Positions 1 through 60,209 of a stretch of DNA of 64,000 nt are shown here, in pieces (positions within the stretch are counted from its first letter, which is position 1; the number at the start of each line of letters is the position of its first letter). The stretch spans positions 11,262,867-11,326,866 of the forward strand of contig NC_081387.1 of the NCBI RefSeq assembly GCF_030684315.1, written 5' to 3'. The DNA comes from Stegostoma tigrinum (Eukaryota). Under the pieces are notes generated by a model that was given only the letters and a program-made list of their open reading frames with translations, was not told where the DNA came from and ran no database searches. Position numbers and translations under genes: made by a program.

Positions 1-62
1 TGCGCACTATTCACTGACCATCATTCTAACCTTGCCTGTTCTTTGTATAGACTTTCGCACAG

Positions 63-191
63 GTAATGAGGGGAACAGCACAGCCGAGTCCAAGTCAAAT
101 ATCTCTCTTTTTGTGTTTGCAATGGCGGTGGAGTTGTCTCTCCTGTTCATCATGGTGGTTCTCGTCATTGTCATGCACTGCCAAAAGACTG
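63..191 (+). CDS. NCR3: NCR3/NKp30-like receptor copy 1, transmembrane exon (upstream exons outside window)
   Basis: Acceptor cgcacag| at 62, donor |gtaaca at 192, phase 1-1, 129 nt. Encodes GNEGNSTAESKSNISLFVFAMAVELSLLFIMVVLVIVMHCQKT. Same length and boundaries as the TM exon of copy 2 (53207-53335). Confidence 0.8.
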
Positions 192-221
192 GTAACAATC
201 CGAATTTGTGTGCCTGTGAGT

Positions 222-815
222 ATCATAGTCACATCATCGGACAGCACCGAAACAGGCTCCCAATTCCGCTCGCCCATGTCAGCCAGGTTTTCCACACTAA
301 ACTAATCCTATTTGCCTCATTTTGGCCCATAGCCCTCGAAGCGTTTGCTGTTCATGTCCCTGTCCAAATGTCTTTCCAGTGTTGTAACTGCAGCACTTCC
401 TGCTGGCATTTCATTCCGTATGCGCATCACCCTCTGTGTTTACAACGATGCCCCCTGCAGTCCCGCTCGATGGTTTTCTCCTCTCATTTTAAACCTATGC
501 CGTCTAGTTGTGAGCTCCCTTTCTGTAGGGAAAGTACCTTTTTAGTATCCTTGCCCCAGTAGACGAGACGTATGCAGTTCTCCAAAAGTGTTCTGTACAG
601 CCACAATATGACATCCCAACTCCTATACTCCACGCACTGACCAATGAAGTCAAGTATGCCAACTGACTTCTTCATCTCCCTAACTGCCTGCGATCCCACT
701 TTCAAGGAAGTATATGCTTGAATCCTTTCTGGTCTCTGTTCCATAACACTCCCCAAGGCCCTACCATTCACTACGTATGTCCTGCCCTGGCTTGTCTTAA
801 CAGGATACAACATCT
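222..815 (-). mobile_element. CR1-type LINE 3' fragment (intronic)
   Basis: Minus-strand ORF 484-813 contains FIGQCVEYRSWDVILWLYRTL, the CR1 ORF2 C-terminal motif seen in other copies in the window. Confidence 0.75.
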
Positions 816-1105
816 CATTGTCGGGGTATGAACGGTGCTAACTTTGCAAGTTTTAACCTGTAAGTCGGCCAGGTTGAGTTGGAACGCTGGCTATAAACTC
901 CCCGAGCCCGTTCACTGATTCGCTTTGAATTGGGAGTCGTGTTGTGGCCCTGGGTGGCTGAAAGCAGCACAGCCTCCCTCACATTGGGCTATTTCTCAAG
1001 AAGGGAGTTCAGTCAACTTGGACGACACATTATGTCAATAAGGAGTGAACTTAATTATGGGCTCAGAAATTTAATAATTCTGTTCCCACTTTCCTTTCTC
1101 CACAG

Positions 1106-1273
1106 CCACTCCTCAGCAACCCGAAAGGTAACCGGCTGGATAGAGTCAGTTATTTGATGCCCGATCTGGTATTTCGCTTGTTATCTGTGATTTCTTCAAC
1201 ATCTCACTTCCCTGCTGTACATTTTATTTTTGCTGCAGGCCAGTTCCCCTGTACGCAGAGATGTATAAAGGAG
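1106..1273 (+). CDS. NCR3: NCR3-like copy 1, cytoplasmic micro-exons 1106-1127 (ATPQQPE) and 1239-1273 (RPVPLYAEMYKG)
   Basis: Splice signals tttcctttctccacag|...aag|gtaacc and tttttgctgcag|...gag|gtgagt. Sizes 22 and 35 nt match the paralogous exons at 54258-54279 and 54392-54426, and the phases are compatible. Confidence 0.7.
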
Positions 1274-1710
1274 GTGAGTAACACAGAGAAATATGCATAA
1301 TATCTCGGTTTATAGATTGAATTTGACTTCTCTTTGATGGGGTGGCTAATTGTATCTTTTGATAGTTCTAATCTGAAAATCTGTCAGAAACTAGAGATTA
1401 ACGATGACTTGGAGAATGCCAAGGGGTCATATAGATTTTCTCTCTTAACTCGGCGAATCACTGTTATCTGGAATACATTGACTGATGGGGAAACATGAAA
1501 TACGATAAGAGGAATTTTCGCCGAGAAATAGATGTTTCAAAGGAGGCGAGTTGCAGGATTCATTGGGAAAAAAGTAGCAAATTGGGCTTGATTGGCAGCA
1601 CTTTTATGTTGCATCCTATAATATTACGGTGTCGGGTACTGTATTTTAATGTATAACCTTAAGTGGAGTTTGTTGAATTATACGATATTAATCGCTTCTC
1701 TGTTGCCTAG

Positions 1711-3636
1711 AGACAGGGTGTCTAGTGTTCGCTCTGAAAGCAGAAGAACCGACCTGATACATAACTCCAATTATAACATCAGTGAACTTGGTAACTTGGT
1801 TGTCAATATTTCCAGCTAGTTTGTAGCCATTGTCATTGTGCAGATGGAGATAAAGAAGCGAAGACTCTTGTAGCACAGTCATAGAATACCCCTGGTTTAA
1901 CAGGTCTGGGATCTAGTCCCACCTGCTCCAGAGGTATGTTGTCGCCTCTCTGAGCAGATTGGTCCAAACACATCTGGATAAATACGCAAAGCTCGGGGTA
2001 CCGCTTGCTGTTTATGATGATGTGTGAGATTTTTCAGCTTGCTCCGCTGACTTGCATTGTGTTCCTTTCCAGAGGCAAGTTTCAGGCAGAGCTACAGAAA
2101 ACTGGCAACAAGTAGAAATATCGGAATTCAACAGAGGGCAGTCAAGGAAATGTGTGAAATGAAAGCGGAATGGTCCAGGAATCAACAAAAAACAGAGGGC
2201 ACTCAGGTTTGAGATGAGGAAAGACCGCTTCACGAAGGGTGTTGCATATCAATAGTTTTCTCTTGTCCCGATAGTTCGGTCAATGAGTTGATTAGAGACG
2301 GAGATCGGTAGATGATTCAGCTCTTGATAAACCAAAGAGCATGGTTGGTGGGAAAAGGAATTGATGTCGTTGGCCTAGACGTTTGTACCAACATGCACCG
2401 ACGTGCTATTACAGATATCTGGGATGCGATGGGACTTGTACTGAAGTCGTCTGCCCCAGAGATTGGGACACTCCGAATGTCTCATAGGCTCTACCATCAT
2501 CAACTGCTTCATCAATGACCTTGAGAGCTCATCAAATGCTCTCAGAATTTAATGGGCCACTGGACCCGAAGCGTTAACTTTGATTTCTCTCCACAGGCGC
2601 TGCCAGACCCACTGAGTATTTTCTCTCTATTTCTGTTTCTGTCTCAGTATTTGTTCCGTTGTCCATCTTCCATGTTTTGTTCTCGCTGTTGTTTCCATTA
2701 AGGCCGAGATCAAACTCGTCTTTGCTGTCGCAATTCAGCGTCTCGTCTGTTAAATTTTAATGGTTTCTTCCTAACTCACACGTCTGTTATCTGTTTAGCG
2801 ATTAATCACTTCTTTCATATCCGATGAAGCACATGCAAACGCTCTTGTTTATCAAATATTGTCTCTTGTTCTTATTCTGATTCCAGAAAGTATTTCTCCA
2901 ATCTCTGCATCAAGTCTCTCGTTATTTTTTTTCTGCTGTGAGTTCCAAGATCAGTTTTAAAGAGATGATACTTTGAGTCTCAGTCCTGAGTGCCTGCACT
3001 CCAGTGATCTTGGTTTCAGTGTCCTTTTAACTCGTATTTGACCTCTTGAGTCACTTCGAATGTACTTGCAGGTTGGAGGTTATTGATGTTGCTGAACAGC
3101 GTGTCTCAGGTTGCGTTTTGAACGCTGCACTGTTGCTGACTCGCGGCTCTATACTCGATTTGCACCAGTTCACGCCAACGCTTTAACCTCAATAGGACGA
3201 CGACGGGATCCAATACACCGGGAGCAATGCGCAGGAGGACAGTCGATGTGAGGGCCCGGTGAATGACAGACAGTGACCGTGGGCGCAGTGAAGAAAAAGC
3301 GGCAGAAACGATTCAGCTTTGTGAAACACCGCCAGGGGGTGATAGATGAAGCTCTTCCCCCACCTCTCCCTCCCACCACCACCCAGTGATCTCGCCCTTA
3401 ATTTCTCTGGAGACTCTGCCAGGCGGCCGAAGTTGGAGTGCTGGTGTTGCAGGGAATTGTTCCCCAGTCGAACAGCTTCTGAGTGAGTTCCATCCGTTTG
3501 CGCACATGTTGCAAGGACTTGCAAACTGAAATATATGTAACATTTAGACCGCTCGGTATGAGTTGTAAAATCTTGCTGCCTTTGCTCGATATGTTTTCAC
3601 CCTCACTTTTGAACGGTATCGTGCCACTCAAATAAA
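1711..3636 (+). other. NCR3-like copy 1, degenerate distal tail exons (1711-~1757 and from 3196) and 3' UTR with AATAAA at 3631-3636
   Basis: Homologous to copy 2 exons 55027-55067 and 56597 onward. The 1711 exon is 5 nt longer, has lost its GT donor (ctg|atacat) and reads ETGCLVFALKAEEPT*. The last exon has a 1-nt deletion relative to copy 2. The polyA signal is conserved in both copies. Confidence 0.55.
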
Positions 3637-22268: not shown

Positions 22269-24649
22269 TCACTTTTGAATGAGAGTGAAGGGATATTTGA
22301 GGGCACGCAGTAGCTCCTGCCTGAACTTACTCTGGGTCACTGCATAAATGGCCGTGTTAGTGCAGCAGCTCAGAAGCTGAAGCATAATTCCTACTTTTTC
22401 ATAAATTTCGTAAGGGCTAAGTAGAGATGTGAGAAGAAAAAAATATGTCATTCTATAATACAGGAAATAAGTGACAGTTGTGATCCAGAGCAGGATAAAG
22501 CTGCCAGATATTGCAAACAGTAAAATGATGGACCTTTTACGATTCTTCATCTCAGGGTCTCTGTCATTGCTCCTGTGGACACGGAGGTTCATCCGCGCCT
22601 GACTGGCCGCTAAAATATACCTGACAGTGAGGATGTTCAAAAGCAAAATCAATAGGAATGGAAGAATGGGAGTTAACAGCTGTTCAATCCAAGAAAAAGC
22701 CATTGCTGCAGTTTGAAAGTGAACCACTGGTGATACAAAGCAACCCCGTGCTATGTTGTTCACTCGCACATGGGGAATGTACAAGAAGGCCCAGGGAATG
22801 TTCTTTAAACAGAAGAACAAGCTCATTGTAATTGTCACCACAAAAGCAGTTTTCACTGTGCAATATTTGGATTTTATCTTGAGACAGCAAATGGCTACAA
22901 AACGATCAAAGGTAAAGGCGACTGTGAACCAAACAGAAATGTCGATGGCAGTCGAAGAGAGGAACAAAATTACTCTACAAACGGAAGTGTACAGCAGCAG
23001 GGAGTCCCACCAATAAATCACGGCAATCCGATATAACGTTACGTTAAAGACAACCACCATGAAATCTGCTGTCGCCATGGCTACCAGGTAGTGAGAGATG
23101 CATTTGGAGAGATCGCATTTCCCCTGACTCAGGACCACAATTGCGACCAGGTTCACTGTGACAAATAGAAAAGAAATCAGTTACGTAAGAGGCTGGGGTG
23201 AATGATAATGCGTAAAATGCCATGGCATTGTCATTTTATTTTCTCTCTGTGTTCTGATCTTCTCTGTTGTAGGTGCTAGTCATGTTGGTAGAACGAATTT
23301 GCCATGACTTACCGGGGCAGTGCTGAAACCACTTCCTGAAGTCTTTATTAATTTTATAAGGTCCACAAAGATTCCTCAATTGATTCAATCTCTGGACCCA
23401 GGTTGACAGAAAGCGCACTGACTTCACAGATTGGAGAGAGAGAGAAAGTGTGCTCCTGCATGTTGGAGAGCAAACGGCTTGACTGAATCTTACTCCTATC
23501 TCTAAACTGTGCAGTCACTTGAAAAAATAAACACAGGCCTGTTTTCAGACAGAAGACATTTGTCTTTGTGCATCTGTCAGTAATCCATAATCTAATCTGC
23601 TACTTTACCAATCAACACTTCATTTGTATGCAACCTCTAGGCTCCAGTTGCAAACACTGCTGCATCTAACAGCTACACAAGTAGTACACACAGTGAAAAT
23701 CAAATTATTCCCTTTCTGTACACATCGATATTCATGGTTATTAGAACCCTGAGACGTAGTAGGAGTATCAATTGGGTCAACCTGTTTGGCTCGGCATTCA
23801 ATCAGGACACAGCTGATCTGATCACCTTCAATTCCGTGTTCCACACTGTTCCTCATGGGCCTTGATGTGCACAGTCTTTTCAAATTGAAGAGTCACATTG
23901 GGCATCTGGGCCAATTATTTTTTGTTTGAGTCTTGAGGTTATCTCCCTCTAGCCAACTACAATCCAGTAGCAGAGGTAAAGTTGGACAGCACTGAGCATA
24001 AATCTGAGCAGGAGAGAGTCAACACTCGCAGGAGTTAGAAAAGCTCTATGATTAGGCTAATGAGTGTGTGGTTAAAAGCAGATTTTTTTTAAAAAATTGG
24101 TACAATAAGTAAAATAAGAACGAAGGCAACAACCAAAATGAAAAGGAGTGGGAGAGGAGAGGTGAGATGCCTCAGATAGTGTATTAGAGAAGAAATTAAG
24201 GTTAGAGATATTAGAAGACAGTCAAACTAAGCGCAAAACTTTGCAAAATAAGACAATATCAAGATTCAAAATGAGTAAGAACTTAAACAATACTGTGATG
24301 GGATTGATCAAGAGTGGTGACGTAACTGAGATTTAAAGAGAATAGAAAAAGAGTAATGACTGATGATAAGTGAATGTAATCTTGTTTGCATTATGATGAA
24401 TTTAATCTATTGAGAGAAGGCAACACCAATGAAAAGAAATTGTGAGGGGGAAGACAAACTGTTCTGAAAGTGAAATCAATTTCTATAATGGAGATGGCTA
24501 AGTGAGAGCAATGCTCACGGATTTAGAAATCAATACAATGCCACCACTGGAACAAATTTCACAAGTATGTAGCACTTACCAGGCACTCCAACTCCAGCAA
24601 GGATAGGATAGTATATGGATGCAACCAGAGACATTTCTGTCCAAAACAT
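22269..24649 (-). CDS. GPR139-like: GPR139/GPR142-like class A GPCR, intact, 2 exons (24649-24580, 23155-22269), 318 aa
   Basis: Exon 1 MFWTEMSLVASIYYPILAGVGVP|gtaagt splices in phase 1 to cacag|(V)NLVAIVVL. Seven hydrophobic segments, MATADF (TM2), FTFDRFVAIC (TM3), ECL2 Cys and SCCTNTAIY (TM7). Confidence 0.92.
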
Positions 24650-30550: not shown

Positions 30551-32665
30551 CAGCTTACAATACAGCCTCATGTGTATAATAATTTACCTTTCCTTACCAA
30601 ATAATTAATTTTCTGCACGCAAAAAAAAGTTGAAAAAAGTCAAATGCATAAACCTTAAATGAAAACAAGCATTTTTCTGAATAACCAAATTTTAAACAAA
30701 GACTCATCATCAAATGGTCCAGCTGAAATCTCTCAGTCTTTGGATATAAACAAGAACCTCAGCCCAGAGCTATCCATGTCTAGGCCTCTCCAAATGCTCT
30801 GTAAGCACAACTTCGTTATTTAAAAAAGTAAATCTCTTTAGCGATTTCAAAGAAATTCTCTTCTGCGCCGATAATCTTTGAGGAAAAAGTCAAGCAGTGT
30901 ATGTGTAAACCTCCCCAAAAGGCCCATTCACAGAAATCCATTCAAAAAAGAATTGCGCACTTTTTGTTGGCATTTTTGAGTATGAAGTAAGTAAAAATGA
31001 TCCAAAATAAAGGTCATATTCTACTGAAATATAATGCATTTAAGAAATCTCGAAGTACATCTTGAAAAATGCCTTCTGTCTCAGGAACCACCATTCCTCA
31101 GAAGCTTGACAGAATAAATGCCGAGAGGATGTTTCCCCTCATGGGAGAGCCTAGGACAAGAGTGCACGTCTTCAGAACTAAGGGGTTGCAATGTAAGATT
31201 GAGGTGAGTAGGAGTTTCATCATTCAGTTAGTTGTGAGTCTTGGGTACTTCTTTCAACAGAGAGCTGTGGGTAGCTCTGGTATATTTAAGGCTGAGGTAG
31301 CTAGATTCTTGATGAGGACAGGAATCAATGGTTTTAGGGAAAGGGTTGGAAAGTGGATGTGAGCAAGATCAGATCCACTATTATCCTACTGATTGACAGA
31401 ACAGGCTCAAAGGACCAAATCACCTGACCGTGATCCATTTTCATGACGGCCTTATGGCTATATCTCTGCTTCACAAAAGAGCTGTGGAATGGTGACAGCA
31501 TCTGCTGTTGACATCAAGGTGAAATGTAACTGAGTGTGCCTTCAGGTATCCTTCAATACTTGGTTAATGAGAATCATAAGTAAAACTGTCTGATGATTCA
31601 CCTTGTATCTTACACAAAGGAAGATGGTTATGAATATTGGAAATCAGTCAGCTCAGCTCTAGGGCTACTGTGCAGGTGTTCTTATTGGCACCAAATCCAA
31701 AAAACACCCACTCTCTTCACACTGTCACTTAGTAGCAGCAGTGTGCACTCTCTACAAGGTGCACTGCAGAAATTCACAAAAAAATTCTGAGGTAGCAGCT
31801 TCCAAGTAACAACTTCAATCGAAAAGGCCAAGGGCAGCAGAAACATGGGAACACCAACACCCGAAGTCTCACTGTAACAAGAGAGCAGCCCTATGATCTG
31901 GTTGGGTTATGGCTGCTCTTTCCTTTACTCCTTTAAGACAGACTTTGTTTTCTGTAGCCAGTTGATATACAGAAGGTTTTTAATATTTGGCTAAAGCTCA
32001 GCTGGGTTCATGTTGTCCGTTATGTCTCTGGACGGAGGGGCGAGCTCATCTGAACTGGGAAGCTGAATTTCCCTGTCCATTTCCTGTAGCATTGGAAATC
32101 CTTGCCTTCCCATCACTCACCATCTCCCTTTTGAAATCTAAATTTGTGTCTAATCGCACTACACTCTCCTCAGCAGTCAATTACAGATGTTAACCAGTGA
32201 GTGCATCTCTACACATCTTCTGTGGCCTTTAGTTCCATGACTGTAAACTTAAACTGATGCCCTCTGTTTGTCAATGCAATGTGATCTCTCTCTTCTGATG
32301 TGCTCTGTTCAGACTCCTCAAGCATTTGAGTATTTTCAAGGATGAGAGCATGTAACACCATCATATTGTCCATCCAACTGCTGTTCTCCCTTGCTCTGGG
32401 TTCCATCCCAAAACATTGTTCAATCCTCCCATCGTTCTGCATTCCATCTTCAGCATATATAATTAACAGTAACTCTGCTTTCTCTTCACAGATACTGCCA
32501 GACTTGCTGAGTTTGCTTGGCAATCTTTCTTAAAATTTATTTTTGACTCTGACTGTTCCTAGCTCCCATCCGTTATGGTCGAACTTCATCTGAGATGCTC
32601 CATCATTTAATAAAATGTGAGGCTGGATGAACACAGCAGGCCAAGCAGCATCTCAGGAGCACAAA

Positions 32666-32700
32666 AGCTGACGTTTCGGGCCTAGACCCTTCATCAGAGA
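32666..32700 (-). ncRNA. Minimal hammerhead ribozyme motif (left arm)
   Basis: The reverse complement reads tctCTGATGAagggtctaggcccGAAACGTCag with an intact core. Confidence 0.6.
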
Positions 32701-33385
32701 GGGGGATGGGGGGAGGGAACTGGAATAAATAGGGAGAGAGGGGGAGGCGGACCGAAGATGGAGAGTAAAGAAGATAGGTGGAGAGGGTGTAGGTGGGGAG
32801 GTAGGGAGGGGATAGGTCAGTCCAAGGAAGACGGACAGGTCAAGGAGGTGGGATGAGGTTAGTAGGTAGCTGGGGGTGCGGCTTGGGGTGGGAGGAAGGG
32901 ATGGGTGAGAGGAAGAACCGGTTAGGGAGGCAGAGACAGGTTGGACTGGTTTTGGGATGCAGTGGGTGGGGGGGAAGAGCTGGGCTGGTTGTGTGGTGCA
33001 TTTGGGGGAGGGGATGAACTGGGCTGGTTTAGGGATGCAGTAGGGGAAGGGGAGATTTTGAAACTGGTGAAGTCCACATTGATACCATATGGCTGCAGGG
33101 TTCCCAGGCGGAATATGAGTTGCTGTTCCTGCAACCTTCGGGTGGCATCATTGTGGCAGTGCAGGAGGCCCATGATGGACATGTCATCAAGAGAATGGGA
33201 GGGGGAGTGGAAATGGTTTGCGACTGGGAGGTGCAGTTGTTTGTTGCGAACTGAGCGGAGGTGTTCTGCAAAGCGGTCCCCAAGCCTCCGCTTGGTTTCC
33301 CCAATGTAGAGGAAGCCGCACCGGGTACAGTGGATGCAGTATACCACATTGGCAGATGTGCAGGTGAACCTCTGCTTAATGTGGA

Positions 33386-34726
33386 ATGTCATCTTGGGGC
33401 CACTTCCTACAGACTAAGGGGGTGGCCATGGGCACCCGCATAGGCCCCAGCTATGCCTGCCTCTTTGTAGGTTACGTGGAACAGTCCCTCTTCCGCACCT
33501 ACACAGGCCCCAAACCCCACCTCTTCCTCCGGTACATTGATGACTGTATCGGCGCCGCCTCTTGCTCCCCAGAGGAGCTCGAACAGTTCATCCACTTCAC
33601 CAACACCTTCCTCCCCAACCTTCAGTTCACCTGGGCCATCTCCAGCACATCCCTCACCTTCCTGGACCTCTCAGTCTCCATCTCAGGCAACCAGCTTGTA
33701 ACTGATGTCCATTTCAAGCCCACCGACTCCCACAGCTACCTAGAATACACCTCCTCCCACCCACCCTCCTGCAAAAATTCCATCCCCTATTCCCAATTCC
33801 TCCGCCTCCGCCGCATCTGCTCCCACGATAAGACATTCCACTCCCGCACCTCCCAGATGTCCAAGTTCTTTAAGGACCGCAACTTTCCCCCCACGGTGAT
33901 TGAGAACACCCTTCACCGCGTCTCCCGCATTTCCCGCGACACATCCCTCACACCCTGCCCCCGCCACAACCGCCCCAAGAGGATCCCCCTCGTTCTCACA
34001 CACCACCCTACCAACCTCCGGATACAACGCATTATCCTCCGACACTTCCGCCATTTACAATCCGACCCCACCACCCAAGACATTTTTCCATCCCCTCCCC
34101 TGTCTGCTTTCCAGAGAGACCACTCTCTCCGTGACTCCCTTGTTCGCTCCACACTGCCCTCCAACCCCACCACACCCGGCACCTTCCCCTGCAACCGCAG
34201 GAAATGCTACACTTGTCCCCACACCTCCTCCCTCACCCCCATCCCAGGCCCCAAGATGACATTCCACATTAAGCAGAGGTTCACCTGCACATCTGCCAAT
34301 GTGGTATACTGCATCCACTGTACCCGGTGTGGCTTCCTCTACATTGGGGAAACCAAGCGGAGGCTTGGGGACCGCTTTGCAGAACACCTCCGCTCAGTTC
34401 GCAACAAACAACTGCACCTCCCAGTCGCAAACCATTTCCACTCCCCCTCCCATTCTCTTGATGACATGTCCATCATGGGCCTCCTGCACTGCCACAATGA
34501 TGCCACCCGAAGGTTGCAGGAACAGCAACTCATATTCCGCCTGGGAACCCTGCAGCCATATGGTATCAATGTGGACTTCACCAGTTTCAAAATCTCCCCT
34601 TCCCCTACTGCATCCCTAAACCAGCCCAGTTCATCCCCTCCCCCAAATGCACCACACAACCAGCCCAGCTCTTCCCCCCCACCCACTGCATCCCAAAACC
34701 AGTCCAACCTGTCTCTGCCTCCCTAA
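33386..34726 (+). CDS. Penelope-like RT (C-terminal half) plus GIY-YIG endonuclease, uninterrupted but N-truncated
   Basis: QTKGVAMGT and FLRYIDD (RT), LTFLDL, Cys-rich linker CNRRKCYTC, NVVYCIHCTRCGFLYIGET..RFAEH (GIY-YIG), GIN. The ATG comes from the inverted arm. Confidence 0.88.
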   Translation: MSSWGHFLQTKGVAMGTRIGPSYACLFVGYVEQSLFRTYTGPKPHLFLRYIDDCIGAASCSPEELEQFIHFTNTFLPNLQFTWAISSTSLTFLDLSVSISGNQLVTDVHFKPTDSHSYLEYTSSHPPSCKNSIPYSQFLRLRRICSHDKTFHSRTSQMSKFFKDRNFPPTVIENTLHRVSRISRDTSLTPCPRHNRPKRIPLVLTHHPTNLRIQRIILRHFRHLQSDPTTQDIFPSPPLSAFQRDHSLRDSLVRSTLPSNPTTPGTFPCNRRKCYTCPHTSSLTPIPGPKMTFHIKQRFTCTSANVVYCIHCTRCGFLYIGETKRRLGDRFAEHLRSVRNKQLHLPVANHFHSPSHSLDDMSIMGLLHCHNDATRRLQEQQLIFRLGTLQPYGINVDFTSFKISPSPTASLNQPSSSPPPNAPHNQPSSSPPPTASQNQSNLSLPP

Positions 34727-37553: not shown

Positions 37554-38936
37554 TCACTTACAAATGAGAGTAAAGGGATATTTGAGGGCACACAGCAGCT
37601 CCTGCCTGAACATACTCTGGGTCACTGCATAAATTGCCGTGTTAATGCAGCAGCTCAGAAGCTGAAGCATAATTCCTGTCTTTTCGTAAGTTTCGTAAGG
37701 GCTAAATAGAGATGTGAGAATAAAGACATTTGTAATTCGATAATGTAGGAAATATGTGACTGTTGTTATCCACAACAGGATAAAACTGCTCGATATTGCG
37801 AAGAGTAATATAATGGACCTTCTGCGATTCTTCATCTCAGGGTCTTTGTCATTTTCTCCATTGCTCCTGTGGGCCCAGAGTTTCTTTCGTGCCTGACTGG
37901 CCACTAAAATGTGCCTGACAGTCAGGACATTCAAAAGTAAAATCAGGATGAATGGTAGAGTGGGAGTTAACAGCTGTTCAATCCAAGAAAATACCATTGC
38001 TGCAATTTGAAAATAAATTACTGGTGATACAAAGCAGCCCCATGGTCTATTGTTCACGAGAGCATAAGGAATGTACAAGAAGGCCCAAGGAATGTTTTTT
38101 AAACAGAAGACCAAGGTCAATGTGATGGTCACCACGGTAGCAGTTTTCTCTGTACAGTATTTTAATTTTAATTTCTGACAAGAAATGGCTACAAAACGAT
38201 CAAAGGTAAAAGCAACTGTGAACCAGACAGAAATGTCGACAGCAGTTGGAGAAAGGAACAAAATAAATCTACAAACTGGAGTGTACAGCAGCAGGGAGTC
38301 CCACCAATAAATTGCAGCAATCTGATGTAATGTCACATTGAAGACAATCACCATGAAATCTGCTGTCGCCATAGCCACCAGGTAGTGAGTGATGCACTTA
38401 GAGAGACCACATTTCCCTCGACACAGGATCACAATTGCCACCAAGTTAACTACGAGAAAGAGGAAAGATAACAGTAAGAAAACAGTCTGTAGTTGACAAT
38501 AATGTAGCAACTAGCATGGCAATTAGCATCATATTTTATCTTTCTGTTATTGTCTTCTCTACTGAAGCTGTTAGTTACCTTGGTGGAATAAACGTGTCCT
38601 GACTCACTAGGGTGGCGCACAAGTTAAGCCCATTGCTCCTGGAATCTTTCCAACCATTACAAATTTCATGAAGCCTACAAGGATTCCCCAACTTACCTGT
38701 TTTTTGATCCAAATTGACAGAAAGCATGGGCCAAGTTTCTGTACTTAACAATATTTGCTGCTATTAAAAATTAAATAGAGCCAAGACACAGGTGCATAGT
38801 TCAAAACCAGAGCCATACAATGCTACTACTTAAAATTTTAATACAAATATAACTTAGCCTCATGTGGATGCAGAGATGTGCACAGACACACACATGCAGA
38901 CACAGGCACACATAGACAGGCAGAGAGACAGGCGTG

Positions 38937-50057: not shown

Positions 50058-53000
50058 ATGTACTGCATTACAGTTACCTGGATCACCGCTGTACTCTCAG
50101 GTAAGCAGGTTAAGACATGGATTGGCACAAGGCTCGCACTAGCATGCATGATGTATTCTCAAATTTTTGCCTTTTTTGAAGCCGAGGCACCTTAATATCT
50201 TGGGGCTGCAGTTAATACATGCTGCCTGATCAACACGAACATATCTCCAAACGGAAATTCACTGAGGCAGTTGCTTTACAGAGACGCTTTGCAGTGACTT
50301 ATGGTGAACTGAAGTGTTTAATTGAAGGGCTAACAGCGCAAAGGAAAATACAGCGTCGATATTGGAAATGGTAGGATAGGCAAAAGATGAGTCAAATATC
50401 ACTGGTTAAGATGAGCAAGGAGTTGAGGATAGTCCTTGATACATAGGCGCATCGAGAAAAGGAATGAGAGCAGTGAATTGTTCTCCTATATACCCAGTCT
50501 CAGTGAATGAATAGCCGCTTTCTCCGCCGTAGGATTGCAGGATGCTTTTCATCCAACAGAATCCAAATATGCCCTATTCCTTACAACTTAGGGTGGGAGA
50601 GATGCAGTGCTGCTGAATGTAAGCAAGCACATTGCTCGATGGTTTTCTGCGCAACCCTGATTAACTGGAGCCGTTTAAGGGAACAAATACAGATGCAGAA
50701 AATAGGGGCAGGTGTCGGAGTTCGACCGCTGTAGCCTGCTCCACCATACATTCTGTTCGTGGCCAATTACCTAACACAACGGCCTGCTCCTGCTATAACC
50801 CTATATGTTTCACTCCTTTTAGACCAAAGTGTATATCTAATTCCTTTTTGAAAACAGTTGATGTTTTGGCCTCCGTTGCTTTCTGTGGCACAGAATTCCA
50901 CAGGTTCACCGCTCTCTGGGTAAAGACGTTTCTCCTGTTTTCGATGCTAAATGGACTACCCCGTATTCTCAGACTGGGACCCTGATTCTGGCCTCGCCAA
51001 CTGTCGGGAGTACCCTTCCTCGTTTACCATAATATCTAGTCCTGTTTCTATGAGTTCCCTCCCACCATCTCTTAGTTCTTAGTTATAATCCTAACACAAC
51101 CTTCCCCTAGTTCTTCATTTGAAGTCATAGATGTGCACTGTCTCCGACATACTAAACATTTCCTTGACCAGGCATTTACGAAAATTGATAAACAGTTCTG
51201 AACGAAGCGTTCACAGGTCATTTATTGTGCCTAATGCGCCGTTCAACGCCTGGTAATATCTCTACATGAAAGGAGGAAATTTGTTTAACTGGGATAGTAC
51301 TCCTCAGTAGCACGGTGATGCGGGCGAGGAGACAGTTTTGCAGTGGTACGCAGATCGCATAGTGCCCATTTAACACTATCGATCTGAACAGAAGCAGCTT
51401 CCAACTGGAAGGTACATGCATCACGCTGGTGAAATCCGAGATGGTTTTATTTTCTGTTTGGGATTACTTCACTCTTCTTAGTTATATGAAAAAAAAAGAA
51501 ATGATACTTTGTCGGGGACAACCTGAAACTTGAGTTAGCTTATGAGATTCGGACGAACATCAAGTTGCAACATAGAAATGGGATCCATTATCAGAAGAAT
51601 TTAACGATAACCATCACGTGGAGCAAGTGATAGGTCTTGAATGTGCCATGATAAGCATAATTTGGATTAAAACTGGAATTAAATAATGTGTTTTTAGAAA
51701 AGAAAAGGAATGCAGTTTTTTTGAAGTTTGTCTTACCCACTTACAGCAGTTGCTGTTGGAAATATCACAGTTATTCAGAGCCCGGACTCTCTCACCAAAA
51801 CGCCGGGCCAGACAGCGCGCCTGGGCTGTACGTATCAGGGACCCAGCGGCATCGGCAGCTACACGTGGCACCGGGGGAACAAGCGGGGGAATGAAGTCTC
51901 CAACAACACAGCGGAGTTCCGAGGCCGGGTGTTGGCGGCGGGCCAAGGGGATTTCAGGGACAGGAGAGACGCCTCGATCAGAATCGTTGATCTGAAACCG
52001 GAGGACACCGGGTTCTATATCTGCGAGGTGGCTTTCATGGGAATGCGGGAAGCCTATGGAGCAGGGACCACACTGACAGTGACGCGGGGTAAGTGCGGGG
52101 CAGCCGAGTTATTCCTAACGAAACAATATGGACCTAATCATGGAAATTCATTCCAGTAATGTATTTCTTTTCGTCTTTAGGCAAACTATCCACTCTGTTA
52201 ACCCAAACTGCTATCTCTACAGTAACGACATCAACCTCAGGTACCCCTTCAATTACCACACTATCCGGGCTTGGAATGATCAATATCTTGCAGTACCTGA
52301 CTCAAAATCCTGTTATGCCCTCCCTAATAAACACTGTAGGTGTGTAAGAACAGATAAACCACCGTGTTGAGGCGGAAACAAGGAGTTCGAAACTGTCCCA
52401 CCGTGTAATGACATTATAGCTGATCTGTAAAATAACGTCATATATCTGTCTTTGGTATTTAACCTTTGCATAACAAAAAATACTCCCTCAGATTTAAATT
52501 AACAGCAGATTTAGCATCCACTACAGTTTTGTGTGGAGAGCTCCAAATATCTACCACCCTTTGTATGTAGAGGCGCTTCCTGATATCTCTCCTGAACGGT
52601 CTGGCCTCAGTCTCAGACTATGCCCCTTAATTCCAGAAAACTCGCTCAGTGGAAATAGTTTTAATCAAGTGGCTCGTCATCTTCAGAAGGAAGCCGCTTT
52701 AGAGGTTCACAATGAATACTGAACTTCTCAGCGGTGGCTGAATTCCCCAGAAGTAATGATTGAGATTATTAAAATTGGATTTCAAACAGTTTTGGGCAAT
52801 CGTTTAACAAGTAATCGGTCATTGGGTGCAAGTGGGGAATTGGAATGCTAACGAGGGCAATAGATGGGACTTGGGGTATTTCAGCGGGTGAAATAACACC
52901 CGGCAACCAATGGCCCGAAACTGATAGCAGTGTCTTAAAGTTCCTGAATTAACGTCCCGATTGTGCCCCCTGAAGAATTGGAAACTCTCCTTTCGGCCGC

Positions 53001-56000
53001 TATGTCAGTTTATGTTTTCAATCGATGATTAAGTTCGATCAAGGCCAATGAAAAATATTAGTTATGGGCTCTGACAGTTAACGATTCTGTTATCACATTC
53101 CTTTCTCCACAGCCATTCCTGCGCACCACACAGAGTTGAAACGTTGCGCACTATTCACTGACCATCATTCTAACCTTGCCTGTTCTTTGTATAGACTTTC
53201 GCACAGGTAATGAGGGGAACAGCACAGCCGAGTCCAAGCCAACTGTTTCTCCATTTGTGTTTGCAATGGCGGTGGTGGTGCCTGTCCTGATCATCATTGT
53301 CGTGACAGTTATTGTCAAATACTCCCGAAAGACTGGTAAAAAAAATATTAATTTGCCTCAGTATGTCGTAGAATTATACGCGATGGAACCAAACCTTTTA
53401 GTCCACTCTTCCACGCCAACTGGTTTACCAAACTGAACTCATCCCATTTGTCCACGTTTGACTCAGAATACTTTAAATCTTTCCTGTTCACGTTCCTGTC
53501 GAAGTGTCTTTTTAAGTATCGTAACTATACCTGCATTTACCGCTCCCTCTGGTAGTTCATCCCACATAAGAAGCACTCTCTGTGTGAAACGCTGCCCCTC
53601 CGGACCCTTTTAATTTTTTTCCCTCTCACATTAAACCTGTGCCCTCTAGTTTTCAACTCCACTACTCTCGGGTAATGACCTTTACATGTTCTTCCTTTTA
53701 ATGTTCTGGACGACCAGAACTGTATGCCATACTCCAAAAGTGGCCTCACCGACGTCCTGTCTAATGGCAACATGACATCCCAATACATCGAAAACTCAAG
53801 GCTCTGAGCGATGAAAGTGAGAGTGCCAAACGCCTTCTTCACCACCCTCTCTATCTGCTCCGTCAGTTTCAAGGAAACATGTACCTGAACCCCTCGCTCT
53901 CTGTGTTCCACACGGCCTTGCTATTAACTTCGTAAGTCCTGTTCTGGTTTGTCTTACTAAACCTCGCGTATTGTCATTACGAGCGACACTAACTTTGCAA
54001 GTTTTCACCTTATAAGCCGGCCAGGCTGAGTTGGAAGGCCGCCTATAAACGCGTCCGATTCTGCTCATCTGTTGCTTTGAATTGAGAGTAGAATTGGGGC
54101 TTTCGGTGAGTGAAAGAAGCGCTGCCTCCTTCACGCCAGGCCATTAGCCAGTTTCAGCTGATGTGGTTAATGTGTCGGACACATTATATCTGTAAGAAGT
54201 AAACTCAGTTATGGGCTCTGACAGTTAACGAACTTTATCACATTCCTTTCTCCACAGCCATTCCTGAGCAACTCGAAAGGTAACTGGCTACAATAAAATC
54301 CGTTATTTAATATCCAGACTAGCATTTCCTTTGTTGTCTGCGTTTTCTTCAACATCTAACCTCCGTGCTGTCCTTTTATATTTTGTAACAGGTCAAATCC
54401 CCTATATGCAGACATCCATGACAGAGGTGAGTAACGCAGGGAAATATGCGTAATATCTCATTTGAAACAAATACTGGTTTAATGCAGTGATTTCGACTTC
54501 TAATTGATGGCGTGGTTAATGGATTTACCTGTAAATTATAATCTGACAATCTGTCAGGAACTAGAGCAGAAAGATTCATGACGACTTGGAAAAAGCAAAG
54601 AGAGAACCTGTGGATTTTCTCTTCTTTCTAACTCAACGAACCACCATGATCAGGAATACATTGGCTGGTGGGAAGGCTGGTGGATGACGACGAGCTAAAC
54701 ATTCACTGTGAAACAGGCGTTTACTTGAAAGGAGACCAAGTGCAGGATTAAATGGGAAGTGGCACTGATCGGCAGCACCCCCAGAGGGTTAGCCTGTGCA
54801 GGACTGGCCGAATGACCTCCCTGGGCTCGACTGATTGTATAATCCAAGAGCCCTTGCTCCCAGCCTGTCATTCAATAAGAAATATTTGACATTGCCGTTT
54901 ACAAGCATGCTGCTTTCAAATAAGCCATGTTGTATCGGAATTATAGCGCCAGATGCTATATTTTACTGTATAAGTTCAGTCAGGTGTATCAAATTAGACG
55001 ATACTAATCCCCTCTCTGTTTTCCAGAGACCAATTCTGCTCGCTTTGAATGCAGAAGAACCGATCTGGTATGTAACGTTAATTACTCAATGATTCAACTT
55101 GGCGAGCTGCTTGTTAATATTTCCAGTTAGATTATAATTATCGTAATTGTGCAGCTCGAGTTAAAGAAGCGAGACTCTTGTAGCACTGCCTCGGAATACC
55201 TCTGGTTCAGAAGATCTGGAACCTTGCCCCACCTGCTCCAGAAGTGTTGTAACCTCTCTGAACAAATTGGTCCAAACACATCTGGATAACTAAGGAAGGT
55301 TCGGGGAGTAGATTGGTCTCTCTGGGAATGGGTGTGAGATTTTCAGCTTTCCACACTGGCTTGCATTGTGTCCCTTTCCCAAGGCAAGTTGCGAGCAGAG
55401 CCGCGGTATTGGCAACGAATAGAAGTATCGGAATTCAACAACGGGGAGCCCAGGGAATGTGTGAAATGGAAAACTGAGAAGGATCCAGAATTCAAAAGAA
55501 AAAGAAAAAGCTCGTTTGAGATGAGGAGAGAGTTTTTCACAAGGAGTGTTGCAACCTTCGGGTGGCATCATTGTGACACTGCAGGAGGCCACCGGATTTC
55601 TCTAGCCCAGATTGTTCGCTCAATGAGTTCATCACACACTGAGATCGGTAGATTAGTCAGATCGTAAGGACGGAAGAGGGCATGGTGGGCGGGAAAACGG
55701 ATTTGACGTATCCAGGTTTTTAACCGACCCGTTCAGGCATGCTATTACACAAGTCTGGGATTAGATGGGATTAGAAGTAGGGTCTCCTTGCTCAGAGCTT
55801 TGCACACTACCAATATGGCGTGGACCCAACCACCGTCAACTGCTTTATCAATGACCTTGGAAGCACACCTAGTTATCTCAGTGCGTGAATGGTCACTGGA
55901 CCCGAGATGTAGTCTCTGATTTCCCTCATAAGACCTGTTGACATTTTCCAGCAATTTCTGTTTCAGTCTCTCAGTATCTATTGGGTGTACAGAAAGTGGG

Positions 56001-56635
56001 TGTTTTTGTTTTGCGACAATGTACTGTGTATTCGTAATTCTGTCTTCCATTGAAGCGTGTCTAGTTCTAAACTCTACCACGTTTTGTTCTCGTTATTTTG
56101 GTCCTAAAATAAGCTCTGGATCAAACTTCGCTGACACGTTTCAGCATTACAACTGTTAACTTTAAGGGGTTAATTTTAGCTGAAATTGTGCATTAGCTGT
56201 TTTGCAATCAATCTCCTTATTATACCCTTTGAAGCAAAATCAAACGCTCTTGTTTATTTCAAGGGCTTAGCAGATATTGTCTCTCGTTACTACTTTAAAC
56301 CAGACTGCTTTTCACCAACCTCTGCTCCAAATGCATCGTTACTTCTTTCTGCTGTCGTTTCCGAGCATACTTTTAAATAGATGACTCTGCCGTCCTGAAC
56401 GATTGCGTCCCCTGTTCTTGATTTTAACGGTCGTTTATTGAATAATTGACATATAGAGTCACTTTGATTGTGCGGAGGATGGTGTTATTTGCTTGAACAG
56501 CGTGTCTCAGGTTGTGTTTTAGACCCTATACTATGTTTGACTCGTGGTTCTGCACTCGATTTGCATCTGCTAATGCGAACGCTTTAACCTCAACAGGGCG
56601 ATGGTGAGGCTCTGTACACAGAGATCAATGCGTAG
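50058..56635 (+). CDS. NCR3: NCR3/NKp30-like Ig receptor copy 2, 8 coding exons (50058-50100, 51747-52088, 52181-52240, 53207-53335, 54258-54279, 54392-54426, 55027-55067, 56597-56635), ~236 aa
   Basis: All junctions are GT-AG with compatible phases (sum 711 nt). Signal peptide MYCITVTWITAVLS/AVAVG, V domain, S/T stalk, TM, and tail AIPEQLERSNPLYADIHDRETNSARFECRRTDLGDGEALYTEINA*. The stalk exon could alternatively end at 52339. AATAAA at 57032-57037. Confidence 0.75.
51747..52088 (+). CDS. NCR3: VJ-type Ig V-set exon of the NKp30 family
   Basis: LGCTY...IGSYTWH...EVSNNTAEFRGRV...DASIRI.DLKPEDTGFYICEV...YGAGTTLTV mirrors human NKp30 motifs (IGSVTWF, EVRNGTPEFRGRL, GNGTRLVV). Phase 1 splice sites ttacag| and |gtaagt. 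Confidence 0.92.
53365..53960 (-). mobile_element. CR1 LINE 3' fragment (intronic); further CR1 pieces at ~49060-49855 and ~50680-51100
   Basis: Minus ORF 53537-53911 VVKKAFGTLTFIAQ...VRPLLEYGIQFWS...TRGHRFNVRG. Confidence 0.8.
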
Positions 56636-57261
56636 GTAGGCAGTCGATCGAAGACCCTGGTGAGCAAACAAACGGTGGTGTACGCCACAGTGAAGAAAGA
56701 GCGGCAGAAACCATCCATTCCTGTGAAAGATCGCCACAGGGCGATAGATACAATCTCCTAAGACATTCCCCCGCCTCTCCCACCAGCAATCACCCGGTCT
56801 TTCTCCGTTAATTCCGACAGAAACTCTGGATGGCGCCTGGAGCTCGGGTGCTGGTGAGAGAAAATTGCCACTACTTGTCCCCCTTGCTGAGCGAGCTCCG
56901 TCCGTTTACGAACCTGTTGCAAGGACTTGCCATCTATTGAACATTTAGGCTGTTAGTTGTTAGTGGTGAACTTTTGCCGCCTTCGTATGAGATACCTTCA
57001 CCCTCCTTTTTGAGCGGTGTCGTGCCACTTAAATAAACAGGTTGAAGCAAATGTTAGAAGTGCAACCAACATCCTGAGTGTTCATGCTCGTCGCTATCCA
57101 AATGCACCCTGTTTCGTGACATAGACCCACCAGCATAATCAGAATCCGGGCGCTATTGATAGTTCCTAACATTCCCTGGCAGTCGAGCCAAGTTGTCCTT
57201 TTGTCAATTACTGCTTTGTTTAAAATGACAATCTTAAATTCAGTTTAACGGAAGGGCACTC

Positions 57262-57800
57262 TGTACGTGTGTGTGTACCTGTGTCNNNNNNNNNNNNNNN
57301 NNNNNNNNNNNNNNNNNNNNNNNNNNNNNNNNNNNNNNNNNNNNNNNNNNNNNNNNNNNNNNNNNNNNNNNNNNNNNNNNNNNNNNNNNNNNNNNNNNNN
57401 NNNNNNNNNNNNNNNNNNNNNNNNNNNNNNNNNNNNNNNNNNNNNNNNNNNNNNNNNNNNNNNNNNNNNNNNNNNNNNNNNNNNNNNNNNNNNNNNNNNN
57501 NTGTGCGTGTTTGTGTGTGTATCTGTGNNNNNNNNNNNNNNNNNNNNNNNNNNNNNNNNNNNNNNNNNNNNNNNNNNNNNNNNNNNNNNNNNNNNNNNNN
57601 NNNNNNNNNNNNNNNNNNNNNNNNNNNNNNNNNNNNNNNNNNNNNNNNNNNNNNNNNNNNNNNNNNNNNNNNNNNNNNNNNNNNNNNNNNNNNNNNNNNN
57701 NNNNNNNNNNNNNNNNNNNNNNNNNNNNNNNNNNNNNNNNNNNNNNNNNNNNNNNNNNNNNNNNNNNNNNNNNNNNNNNNNNNNNNNNNNNNNNNNNNNN
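57262..57800. repeat. (GT)-rich simple repeat with assembly gaps (N 57286-57501, 57528-57800)
   Basis: Direct inspection. Confidence 0.9.
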
Positions 57801-59036: not shown

Positions 59037-60209
59037 TAATGGGAACTGCAGATGCTGGAGAATCCAAGATAACAAAGTGTGAAGCTGGATGAACTCAGCA
59101 GGCCAAGCAGCATCTCAGGAGCACACATTCCTCACACCCCGCCCCCGCCACAATCGCCCCAAGAGGATCCCCCTCGTTCTCACATACCACCCCACCAACC
59201 TCCGGATACAACGCATCATCCTCCGACACTTCCGCCATCTACAATCCGACCCCACCACCCAAGCCATTTTTTCATCCCCACCCCGTCTGCTTTCAGGAGA
59301 GACCACTCTCCGTGACTCCCTTGTTCGCTCCACACTGCCCTCCAACCCCACCACACCCTGCACCTTCCCCTGCAACCGCAGGAAGTGCTACACTTGCCCC
59401 CACACCTCCTCCCTCACCCCCATCCCAGGCCCCAAGATGACCTTCCATATTAAGCAGATGTTCACCTGCACGTCTGCCAATGTGGTATAGTGTATCCATT
59501 GTACCGGGTATGGCTTCATCTACATTGGGGAACCCAAGCGGAGGCTTGGGGACCGCTTTGCAGAACACCTCCGCTCGGCTCGCAATAAACAACTGCACCT
59601 CCTAGTCGCGAACCATTTTAGCTCCCCCTCCCATTCCTCAGACGACATGTCCATCATGGGCCTCCTGCAGTGTCACAATGATGCCACCCGAAGGTTGCAA
59701 GAACAGTAACTCATATTCCGCTTGGGAACCCTGCAGCCCGATGGTATCAATGTGGACTTCACAAGCTTCAAAATCTCCCCTTCCCCCACTGCATCCCACA
59801 ACCAGCCCAGTTCGTCCCCTCCCCCCACTGCATCACAAAACCAGCCCAGCTCGTCCCCTCCCCCCACTACATCCCAAAACCAGCCCAGCCTGTCTCCGCT
59901 TCCCTAACCTGTTCTTCCTCTCACTCATCCCTTCCTCCCACCTCAAACCACACCTCCATTTCCTACCTACTACCTCATCCCGCCTCCTTGACCTGTCCAT
60001 CTTTCCCGGACTGACATGTCCCCTCCCTACCTCCCCACCTATACTCTCTTCTCCATCTTCGGTCCGCCTCCCCCTCTCTCTCTATTTATTCCAGAACCGT
60101 TTCCCCATCCCCCTCTCTGATGAAGGGTCTAGGTCCAAAACGTCAGCTTTTGTGCTCCTGAGATGCTGCTTGGCCTGCTGTGTTCATCCAGCTTCACACT
60201 TTGTTATCT
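59037..60209 (+). mobile_element. 5'-truncated, decayed Penelope family A copy with short inverted 5' arm
   Basis: Linker and GIY-YIG region with stops. Inverted arm 59037-59124. TSD aggaatttcatggga at 59022-59036 and 60210-60224. The hammerhead core is mutated (GAAA to AAAA near 60137). Confidence 0.9.

What the first reader, a model, noticed from the sequence alone, without database searches (positions are those of the whole stretch)
56597..56761. Perfect ITIM hidden in frame just behind a TAG stop in copy 2
Seen: the last exon reads GDGEALYTEINA-TAG(56633-56635)-VGSRSKTLVSKQTVVYATVKKERQKPSIPVKDRHRAIDTIS*. The frame stays open 41 codons past the stop and contains VVYATV (56675-56692), a canonical V-x-Y-x-x-V ITIM. 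The paralog has CAG at the TAG position, so the stop is one C-to-T change away. The AG of the TAG is also an in-frame phase 0 candidate acceptor, though without a pyrimidine tract. Inference: the ancestor was an ITIM-bearing inhibitory NKp30, now switched off by a nonsense allele or toggled by readthrough or alternative splicing.
Basis: partly seen in the sequence, partly recalled or inferred. Interest (0 to 1): 0.82.

Follow-up and report, generated by a model that had tools for sequence, protein, structure and literature searches.

The report
Shark NKp30 loses its inhibitory tail
A shark immune-receptor gene of the NKp30 family has a stop codon that likely cuts off an inhibitory signalling motif which related sharks' gene models still encode; nothing found suggests the stop is bypassed, so the hidden motif is likely a relic.

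Summary
The gene is an eight-exon, MHC-linked NCR3/NKp30-family receptor (V domain, stalk, uncharged TM, tyrosine tail), closest to nurse shark NCR3. Four of five shark homologs found carry this last exon. All four read Q or R at the stop position and have two ITIM-like motifs, so an ITIM-bearing ancestor is supported for this shark lineage. The fifth (nurse shark) ends earlier, in a retained intron. The toggle idea has no support: the stop lacks the CUAG and CARYYA readthrough contexts, there is no unusual RNA structure, and the 56636 acceptor is the fifth AG after the branch point with 35% pyrimidines. A neutral simulation keeps frame and ITIM intact in about 50-70% of runs at 5-10% substitution, so their survival needs no function. 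The proximal ITIM has also lost its -2 residue, and the paralog is a pseudogene. Best reading: a nonsense change that likely silences an inhibitory tail, as is known for short-tailed KIR, but without the charged TM residue. Whether it is fixed or polymorphic is open. The main shark NCR3 papers could not be read.

The parts
50058..50100 (+). leader exon of copy 2 (ATG at 50058)
   Evidence: RNA joint 50100 to 51747 in organism C run X7
51747..52088 (+). single-exon VJ-type V domain; 89% identical to nurse shark NCR3; best PDB hits are human NKp30
52181..52240 (+). Ser/Thr-rich stalk exon, shared with nurse shark NCR3
   Evidence: RNA joint in X7
53061..53126 (+). duplicate of the 54208-54271 acceptor region (AG ending 53112), upstream of the TM exon; if used it would put a stop at 53208, before the TM helix
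   Evidence: absent from copy 1 and from the organism B contig (table 5c); use untested
53207..53335 (+). transmembrane exon, no charged residue in the helix
54258..54279 (+). cytoplasmic exon 1
   Evidence: RNA joint 54279 to 54392 in X7
54392..54426 (+). cytoplasmic exon 2 with NPLYADI; reading on into the intron gives RGE-stop, the end of the nurse shark protein
55027..55067 (+). cytoplasmic exon 3, ends in phase 0
   Evidence: RNA joint 54426 to 55027 in X7
56570..56596 (+). branch-point-like CTAAT at 56570 and first downstream AG (acceptor for 56597), 33 of 40 bases shared with copy 1
56597..56632 (+). coding part of last exon; ALYTEI at 56609-56626 is the decayed proximal ITIM
56633..56635 (+). 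TAG nonsense codon; homologs have Q or R here
56636..56758 (+). 41 formerly coding codons, now likely 3' UTR
   Evidence: 23 of 38 residues identical to C. plagiosum
56675..56692 (+). VVYATV, canonical distal ITIM behind the stop
   Evidence: consensus as given in PMC12151841
56759..56761 (+). TAA closing the post-stop frame; aligns with E in C. plagiosum
57032..57037 (+). AATAAA poly(A) signal, matched in copy 1 at 3631
63..1756 (+). copy 1 (pseudogene): TM exon with Glu in the helix, cytoplasmic exons 1-3, exon 3 donor reads AT
   Evidence: its V exon lies just upstream of the window (L018) with a TAG, a frameshift and a TT donor
3196..3360 (+). copy 1 last exon: CAG at 3232, a frameshift, and the distal ITIM tyrosine lost

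Best explanation
The TAG at 56633 is a nonsense change in the last exon of an MHC-linked shark NCR3/NKp30-family gene, and it likely ends translation there, leaving the distal ITIM as an untranslated relic. Shown: gene anatomy, the stop, the sense codon and ITIM-like pair in homologs, the uncharged TM helix, the broken paralog. Inferred: the ancestral protein was an inhibitory receptor whose two phosphotyrosine motifs, about 22 residues apart, bound the tandem SH2 domains of SHP-1/SHP-2. Because the stop is in the last exon, the mRNA would escape exon-junction NMD (general knowledge) and give a 236-residue protein with a 51-residue tail. That tail keeps NPLYADI and ALYTEI but no canonical ITIM, and the protein has no basic TM residue to bind an ITAM adaptor. 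It would therefore be a weakly signalling or non-signalling ligand-binding receptor, not an activating one. The post-stop codons look intact because the change is likely young, not because they are still read.
For: Column of the TAG: Q in C. plagiosum, C. punctatum, catshark and copy 1, R in horn shark. Distal motif: VLYATV in catshark and horn shark, MVYAKV in both bamboo sharks. Proximal motif: VQYAEI, VQYATL, MQYAQL. Post-stop identity to C. plagiosum is 23/38, similar to the exons before the stop (26/42, 18/33, 6/12). Neutral simulation: frame open to the ITIM and ITIM intact in 71% of runs at 5% substitution, 50% at 10%, 37% at 15%. Organism C contigs differ from the window by about 10-15% in introns (table 8, e.g. 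29 of 278, 59 of 404), so roughly half of that bounds the window lineage if the stop is younger than that split (inference). Other signs of relaxed constraint on this tail: 5 of 9 ancestral sites changed in the 12 residues before the stop, including the -2 and -1 residues of the proximal ITIM, and a duplicated acceptor before the TM exon. Readthrough and acceptor features are absent. Precedent: short-tailed KIR lost inhibition through a stop codon in the proximal ITIM (PMC2213150, passages). Only one other copy of this exon exists in the genome by DNA search, the pseudogene.
Against: No RNA or protein of this species was seen: no RNA holder was laid for organism A. The genotype at 56633 in other individuals was not obtained. 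The post-stop codons are not more changed than the pre-stop ones (5 of 17 ancestral sites against 5 of 9 and 11 of 27), which fits a young stop but also continued selection. No DNA of orthologs was on hand, so dN/dS was not computed. The homolog tails are database gene models whose transcript support I did not see. The 1:1 ortholog (nurse shark P0002) ends before this exon, so the base at the stop position in that lineage is unknown. SHP binding is inferred from motif alone; an ITIM match need not recruit SHP (NKp44-1, PMC6514059 passage).
Confidence: 0.7

Rival explanations
1. The stop is one allele of a polymorphism: long-tailed (CAG, inhibitory) and short-tailed (TAG) forms segregate in the species, possibly kept by balancing selection as in paired NK receptors. 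This differs from the best explanation only in population status.
For: The four best DNA holders each lack 4-6 of 50 sampled words of 56560-57040 (shares 0.88-0.92), which fits one or two differences somewhere in the stretch or gaps in cover. Contigs of both samples differ from the window at 55552-55589, so the locus varies. The distal ITIM is pristine.
Against: The missing words cannot be placed, and no row for 56633 was shown (996 rows not shown). The adjacent E-to-V change, the decayed proximal ITIM and the duplicated acceptor suggest longer relaxation of the tail.
Confidence: 0.14
2. The last exon is a minor product anyway: the main transcript would stop in the retained intron after 54426 (RGE-stop), as in the nurse shark protein, so the tail was already dispensable and the TAG has little effect. 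Compatible with the best explanation.
For: Nurse shark P0002 ends RGE and the window's intron gives the same end. Copy 2 and P0002 are sisters with support 100/97. Horn shark also has a model with an alternative tail lacking ITIMs (P0007).
Against: RNA contigs of organism C bridge 54426 to 55027 and cover the last exon. GE-stop follows from the GTGAGTAA donor itself and is also in copy 1.
Confidence: 0.12
3. Programmed readthrough or A-to-I editing (UAG to UGG) yields some full-length ITIM-bearing protein.
For: The frame is open for 41 codons with an intact ITIM. In the local fold the A of UAG is unpaired between paired neighbours. UAG followed by G resembles a viral class named in PMC4132726, which needs a 3' pseudoknot.
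Against: The context is UAG-GUAGGC, not UGA-CUAG or UAG-CARYYA. Folding z-scores are -0.27 for 56597-56790 and +0.05 for the 70 bases after the stop. None of 19 inverted repeats covers the stop. The best duplex for the stop region ranks 13 of 19 among tiled probes. The stop is not conserved in any homolog, unlike the validated mammalian cases. Pseudoknots were not modelled.
Confidence: 0.04
4. An alternative acceptor at 56636 skips the stop and swaps the ALYTEI-ending tail for a VVYATV-bearing one.
For: 56636 is in phase 0, matching the donor at 55067.
Against: It is the fifth AG after the CTAAT at 56570 (AG ends at 56596, 56608, 56621, 56623, 56635). Its -20..-4 stretch is 35% pyrimidine, against 53% at 56597 and 59-88% at the six other acceptors; 83% of 4101 window AGs score as high. 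The AG is ancestral.
Confidence: 0.03
5. The T at 56633 is an assembly error and the gene is an intact one-ITIM receptor.
For: A single base makes the difference, and it was not checked against reads.
Against: It is a clean substitution outside a homopolymer, and long-read assembly errors are mostly indels (general knowledge). It sits beside other lineage-specific changes.
Confidence: 0.04

Closest known systems
Nurse shark NCR3 (QTT61898.1, P0002); shark NCR3 family of Kinlein et al. 2021 (title only seen, in reference lists)
   Same: 89% identity in the V domain, same stalk, TM and first two cytoplasmic exons; sister to copy 2 in both trees; MHC-linked.
   Different: The deposited nurse shark protein ends RGE-stop in the intron after exon 54392-54426 and shows neither ITIM. 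The window's gene model goes two exons further and stops at the TAG.
Bamboo shark LOC122541165, catshark LOC119975537 (N-terminal half), horn shark XP_067865393/395
   Same: Same V-TM-tail layout and same last exon, with a pair of tyrosine motifs.
   Different: They read through the position of the TAG and keep both motifs; they lack the stalk exon.
Human NKp30 (NCR3)
   Same: Best PDB sequence hits, E about 1e-13; single VJ-type V exon; MHC linkage.
   Different: Human NKp30 has a TM arginine that pairs with CD3zeta or FcRgamma and a tail without signalling motifs (PMC6514059 passages). This gene has no charged TM residue and a long tyrosine tail.
Short-tailed KIR (KIR2DS/3DS) and activating Ly49
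   Same: Loss of inhibition by a stop codon at an ITIM in a duplicated NK-receptor family (PMC2213150 passages); gene conversion between neighbours (97-99% tract at about 51750-53230).
   Different: Short-tailed KIR also gained a TM lysine for DAP12. Here there is no basic TM residue, so it is a loss without a switch to activation. Unrelated protein family.

Membership tests
NCR3/NKp30 family | single exon encoding a VJ-type V domain | tested here: met
   exon 51747-52088, V-set E 7.5e-15, ends GxGT-type J motif
NCR3/NKp30 family | closest named or solved relative is NCR3 | tested here: met
   nurse shark NCR3 89%; top four PDB hits are human NKp30, ahead of SIRP and TCR
NCR3/NKp30 family | linkage to the MHC | tested here: met
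   all 36 MHC class I matches are on contig C44, the nearest about 166 kb from the V exon
NCR3/NKp30 family | 1:1 orthology with mammalian NCR3 rather than NCR3H or another paralog | tested here: inconclusive
   V tree resolves a shark clade (96/98) but not its link to tetrapod NCR3; no mammalian row was included
NCR3/NKp30 family | binds B7H6 | not tested
   no binding test or model was run
Activating NKp30 (mammalian type) | basic residue in the TM helix for an ITAM adaptor | tested here: not met
   TM exon has no charged residue in the helix; requirement from PMC6514059
ITIM inhibitory receptor (ancestral state) | (S/I/V/L)xYxx(I/V/L) in the translated tail, usually paired | tested here: met
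   for homologs: each of the 4 with the last exon has at least one canonical motif; the second has M at -2 in three of them
ITIM inhibitory receptor (this allele) | canonical ITIM in the translated tail | tested here: not met
   only PLYADI and ALYTEI lie before the stop
ITIM inhibitory receptor | phosphorylation and SHP-1/SHP-2 recruitment | not testable with these tools
   needs a cell assay
Programmed stop-codon readthrough gene | leaky context (UGA-CUAG, UAG-CARYYA) or a 3' structure | tested here: not met
   pseudoknots not modelled
Programmed stop-codon readthrough gene | stop codon conserved across species with coding constraint behind it | tested here: not met
   homologs have Q or R at that column; the nurse shark ortholog could not be read there
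Short-tailed paired NK receptor (KIR2DS-like switch) | ITIM lost by stop codon plus gain of a basic TM residue | tested here: not met
   first half met, second half not

The most novel reading that the evidence does not exclude
Sharks keep an ancient, MHC-linked, two-ITIM inhibitory NKp30, and in this species a single base at 56633 works as a live on/off switch for the inhibitory tail, either as a balanced long/short allele pair or by regulated bypass of the stop. That would be a KIR-like paired-receptor switch caught at its first step in cartilaginous fish.
Probability: 0.15. Interest if true: 0.7.

Novelty: new variant of a known kind. Interest (0 to 1): 0.36.

Why it matters
NKp30 is described as an activating receptor that signals through a TM arginine. 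A shark NCR3 clade with an uncharged TM helix and paired ITIM-like motifs in three shark orders suggests that the family also held inhibitory members early on. This matters for how NK-type recognition of B7H6-like ligands began. That part rests on public gene models and may already be in papers I could not read. The stop itself is likely ordinary birth-and-death decay: copy 1 is dead and copy 2 has lost its canonical ITIMs, so by the searches run here this genome holds no intact copy of that tail. It would become notable if the stop were a maintained polymorphism.

Tried and rejected
No RNA holder was listed for the stretch; this says nothing on expression. X7 proved to hold spliced contigs of another organism. 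Run X5 (organism B) had no cover at 54082-54573 and 56050-57033, which is no evidence of absence. Readthrough, editing and alternative-acceptor features were looked for and not found. dN/dS was not computed, as only proteins of orthologs were available; DNA identity to the pseudogene copy is flat (73% intron, 75% post-stop, 73% UTR) and uninformative. Three word-based protein searches gave only 5-6 shark proteins each. The profile search gave 495 hits at E up to 0.001; 150 were listed, 65 ids were scanned for TM and motifs, and 20 were named. P0016, inside the V clade, has no ITIM in its model, which counts against a universal ancestral tail. Chance as an explanation of the motif was rejected by homology. 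Papers not held: Kinlein 2021, Flajnik 2012, Janes 2023, Ohta 2015, Ohta 2019; their texts and supplements may already describe these tails. The scan's earlier findings held nothing. No structure or complex was predicted, since a fold would not decide between the rivals.

Full report
Observation. 56597-56632 reads GDGEALYTEINA, TAG follows at 56633-56635, then 41 open codons with VVYATV at 56675-56692 and TAA at 56759-56761. The paralog at the start of the window has CAG at 3232 in the aligned place. VVYATV fits the consensus (S/I/V/L)xYxx(I/V/L) as given in PMC12151841 (passages). By chance, 51 of 6169 stops in the window's six frames are followed by 41 open codons with such a motif, and 0.35% of 100,000 shuffles.

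The gene. Eight exons join in frame with GT-AG ends: 50058-50100, 51747-52088, 52181-52240, 53207-53335, 54258-54279, 54392-54426, 55027-55067 and 56597 onward. They give 236 residues before the TAG, with a 51-residue tail. RNA contigs of another organism (run X7, organism C) bridge four of the seven introns among the joints shown: leader-V, V-stalk, cytoplasmic 1-2 and 2-3. They also cover the last exon. The joint into 56597 was not among the 15 shown, and 55 were not shown. X7 has three extra letters at the 54279-54392 joint, which fits the one extra residue of the nurse shark protein there, so organism C is likely near that lineage (inference). The V exon is a V-set domain, 89% identical to nurse shark NCR3, and its four best PDB hits are human NKp30. 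All 36 MHC class I matches in the genome lie on the same contig, the nearest about 166 kb upstream. The TM helix has no charged residue. Human NKp30 signals through a TM arginine (PMC6514059, passages).

Homologs. The V-exon search returned five shark proteins. Four carry the last exon: two bamboo sharks, catshark and horn shark. All four have a sense residue at the column of the TAG (Q, Q, Q, R) and two tyrosine motifs: VQYAEI and MVYAKV in both bamboo sharks, MQYAQL and VLYATV in catshark, VQYATL and VLYATV in horn shark. By the strict consensus, the distal motif is canonical in 2 of 4 and the proximal in 3 of 4; the others have M at -2. The fifth, nurse shark P0002, ends RGE, which is what the window gives if the intron after 54426 is retained. 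Results against a uniform picture: horn shark isoform X3 has a different tail without an ITIM, P0009 is V-only, and P0016, inside the same V clade, has no ITIM in its model. All of these except the nurse shark entry are database models, and I did not see transcript support for any of them. In a TM-plus-tail tree copy 2 is sister to nurse shark NCR3 (100/97), copy 1 is next (80/85) and bamboo sharks lie outside (the nurse shark row fills only 49% of columns). The V tree agrees at 90/89 within a shark clade of 96/98. A profile search also found NCR3-like proteins with similar motif pairs in lungfish, bichir, sturgeon, newt and gecko, but the V tree does not tie them to this clade. So an inhibitory ancestor is supported for galeomorph sharks and only suggested beyond them.

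The paralog. Copy 1 is a pseudogene. Its V exon, just upstream of the window, has a TAG, a one-base deletion and a TT donor. Its third cytoplasmic exon has an AT donor, and its last exon has a frameshift and has lost the distal tyrosine. The two copies are 96-99% alike from about 51750 to 53000, still 91% in the next bin, and about 70-79% elsewhere, which points to gene conversion. A DNA search of the genome with the last exon found only these two places, and a protein search with the post-stop codons found only the window; both score only the best candidates.

Is the stop bypassed? Readthrough: the context is UAG-GUAGGC. Validated vertebrate cases have UGA-CUAG, conserved across species, and plant-virus cases have UAG-CARYYA (PMC4132726, passages). 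Folding is ordinary: z -0.27 for 56597-56790 and +0.05 for the 70 bases after the stop; pseudoknots were not modelled. Editing: none of 19 inverted repeats in 55000-57280 covers the stop, and its best duplex ranks 13 of 19 among tiled probes. Alternative acceptor: 56636 is the fifth AG after the branch-point-like CTAAT at 56570 and has 35% pyrimidines, against 53% at 56597 and 59-88% at the other six acceptors; 83% of 4101 AGs in the window score as high. The acceptor at 56597 is itself weak by this measure (43% of AGs score as high), but it is the first AG after the branch point and 33 of its 40 upstream bases are shared with copy 1.

Why is the relic so clean? Post-stop identity to C. plagiosum is 23/38, against 26/42, 18/33 and 6/12 for the exons before the stop. 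Copy 2 has changed 5 of 17 inferred ancestral sites after the stop, 5 of 9 in the 12 residues before it, and 11 of 27 in the three small exons. In a neutral simulation without indels, the frame up to the ITIM and the ITIM itself survive in 71% of 20,000 runs at 5% substitution, 50% at 10% and 37% at 15%. Organism C contigs differ from the window by about 10-15% in introns (table 8), so a stop that arose after that split leaves an intact motif as the expected result (inference). The counts are too small to exclude continued selection. Other changes point to relaxed constraint: the proximal ITIM lost its -2 and -1 residues, and a copy of the 54208-54271 acceptor has been inserted at 53061-53126, absent from copy 1 and from the organism B contig; if used it would stop the protein at 53208.

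Mechanism. Inferred: the ancestral tail was phosphorylated at both motifs and bound the tandem SH2 domains of SHP-1 or SHP-2, as described for PD-1 (PMC12151841, passages). The stop lies in the last exon, so the mRNA would escape exon-junction NMD (general knowledge). The protein would keep NPLYADI and ALYTEI, lose the only canonical ITIM, and have no adaptor-binding TM residue. It would be a weakly signalling or decoy receptor. I put this at 0.7. A segregating allele (0.14) is the main open rival: the four best DNA holders lack 4-6 of 50 sampled words, but these cannot be placed, and the base at 56633 in other samples was not obtained.

Known and new. ITIM loss by a stop codon is on record for short-tailed KIR, where it went with the gain of a TM lysine (PMC2213150, passages); here only the loss is seen. 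Nine searches of the library on NKp30/NCR3 in sharks, ITIMs, XMIV and NCR3H listed no paper whose title or abstract start describes an ITIM-bearing shark NCR3. Passages read in PMC12227049, PMC12272517, PMC11599192, PMC6514059, PMC10751288, PMC11999971 and PMC10450919 did not describe one either. PMC12272517 states that human NKp30C carries an ITIM, while PMC6514059 says only NKp44 has one. The primary papers (Kinlein 2021, Flajnik 2012, Janes 2023, Ohta 2015 and 2019) were seen only as titles in reference lists, and their texts and supplements were not held, so novelty of the inhibitory shark NCR3 is unverified. From recall, not from a call: the Xenopus MHC-linked XMIV genes, relatives of NKp30, were described with ITIM or charged-TM forms.

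Verdict. The switch is most likely a plain nonsense change in a family under birth-and-death turnover. Interest 0.36; 0.7 if the base proves to be a maintained on/off switch (probability 0.15).

Noticed in passing
window 53061-53126: A 94% identical duplicate of the 54208-54271 splice acceptor sits about 95 bases before the TM exon of copy 2. It is absent from copy 1 and from the organism B contig. If used, it would give a stop before the TM helix, that is a secreted or NMD-sensitive form.
   Followed up: partly
window 51750-53230 and L018:8300-10000 plus window 1-90: Gene-conversion tract: copies 1 and 2 are 96-99% alike over the V and stalk exons but about 70-79% elsewhere.
   Followed up: partly
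window 63-191: The TM helix of pseudogene copy 1 has a glutamate where copy 2 has valine; acidic TM residues recall CD300c (recalled), but the copy is broken.
   Followed up: no
window 55552-55589: Contigs of both organism A samples and of organism C replace these 38 bases with a few others, so the window's haplotype has a small insertion here.
   Followed up: no
window 9916-10944, 22272-23180, 37557-38510 (minus strand): Three single-exon ORFs with seven-TM, GPCR-like sequence lie between the two NCR3 copies; the first is split by a stop near 10620. Family not tested.
   Followed up: no
window 33380-34723 (plus strand), related pieces at 32656-33413 and 59083-60208: A 448-residue ORF that looks like reverse transcriptase plus GIY-YIG endonuclease of a Penelope-type retroelement (label from recall).
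   Followed up: no
G000:C44 11.34, 11.83-11.94 and 20.15-20.36 Mb (L004, L006, L008-L017, L036-L040): At least two further clusters of NCR3-like V exons on the MHC contig. The gene at about 20.30-20.32 Mb has an open last exon ending in IVYAAV, a canonical ITIM.
   Followed up: partly
P0001: The catshark model LOC119975537 appears to fuse this receptor with a downstream V-TM gene.
   Followed up: no
P0034, P0042, P0019, P0049, P0054: Lungfish, bichir, newt, sturgeon and gecko NCR3-like proteins have uncharged TM helices and pairs of ITIM-like motifs at similar spacing; orthology with the shark clade is unresolved.
   Followed up: partly
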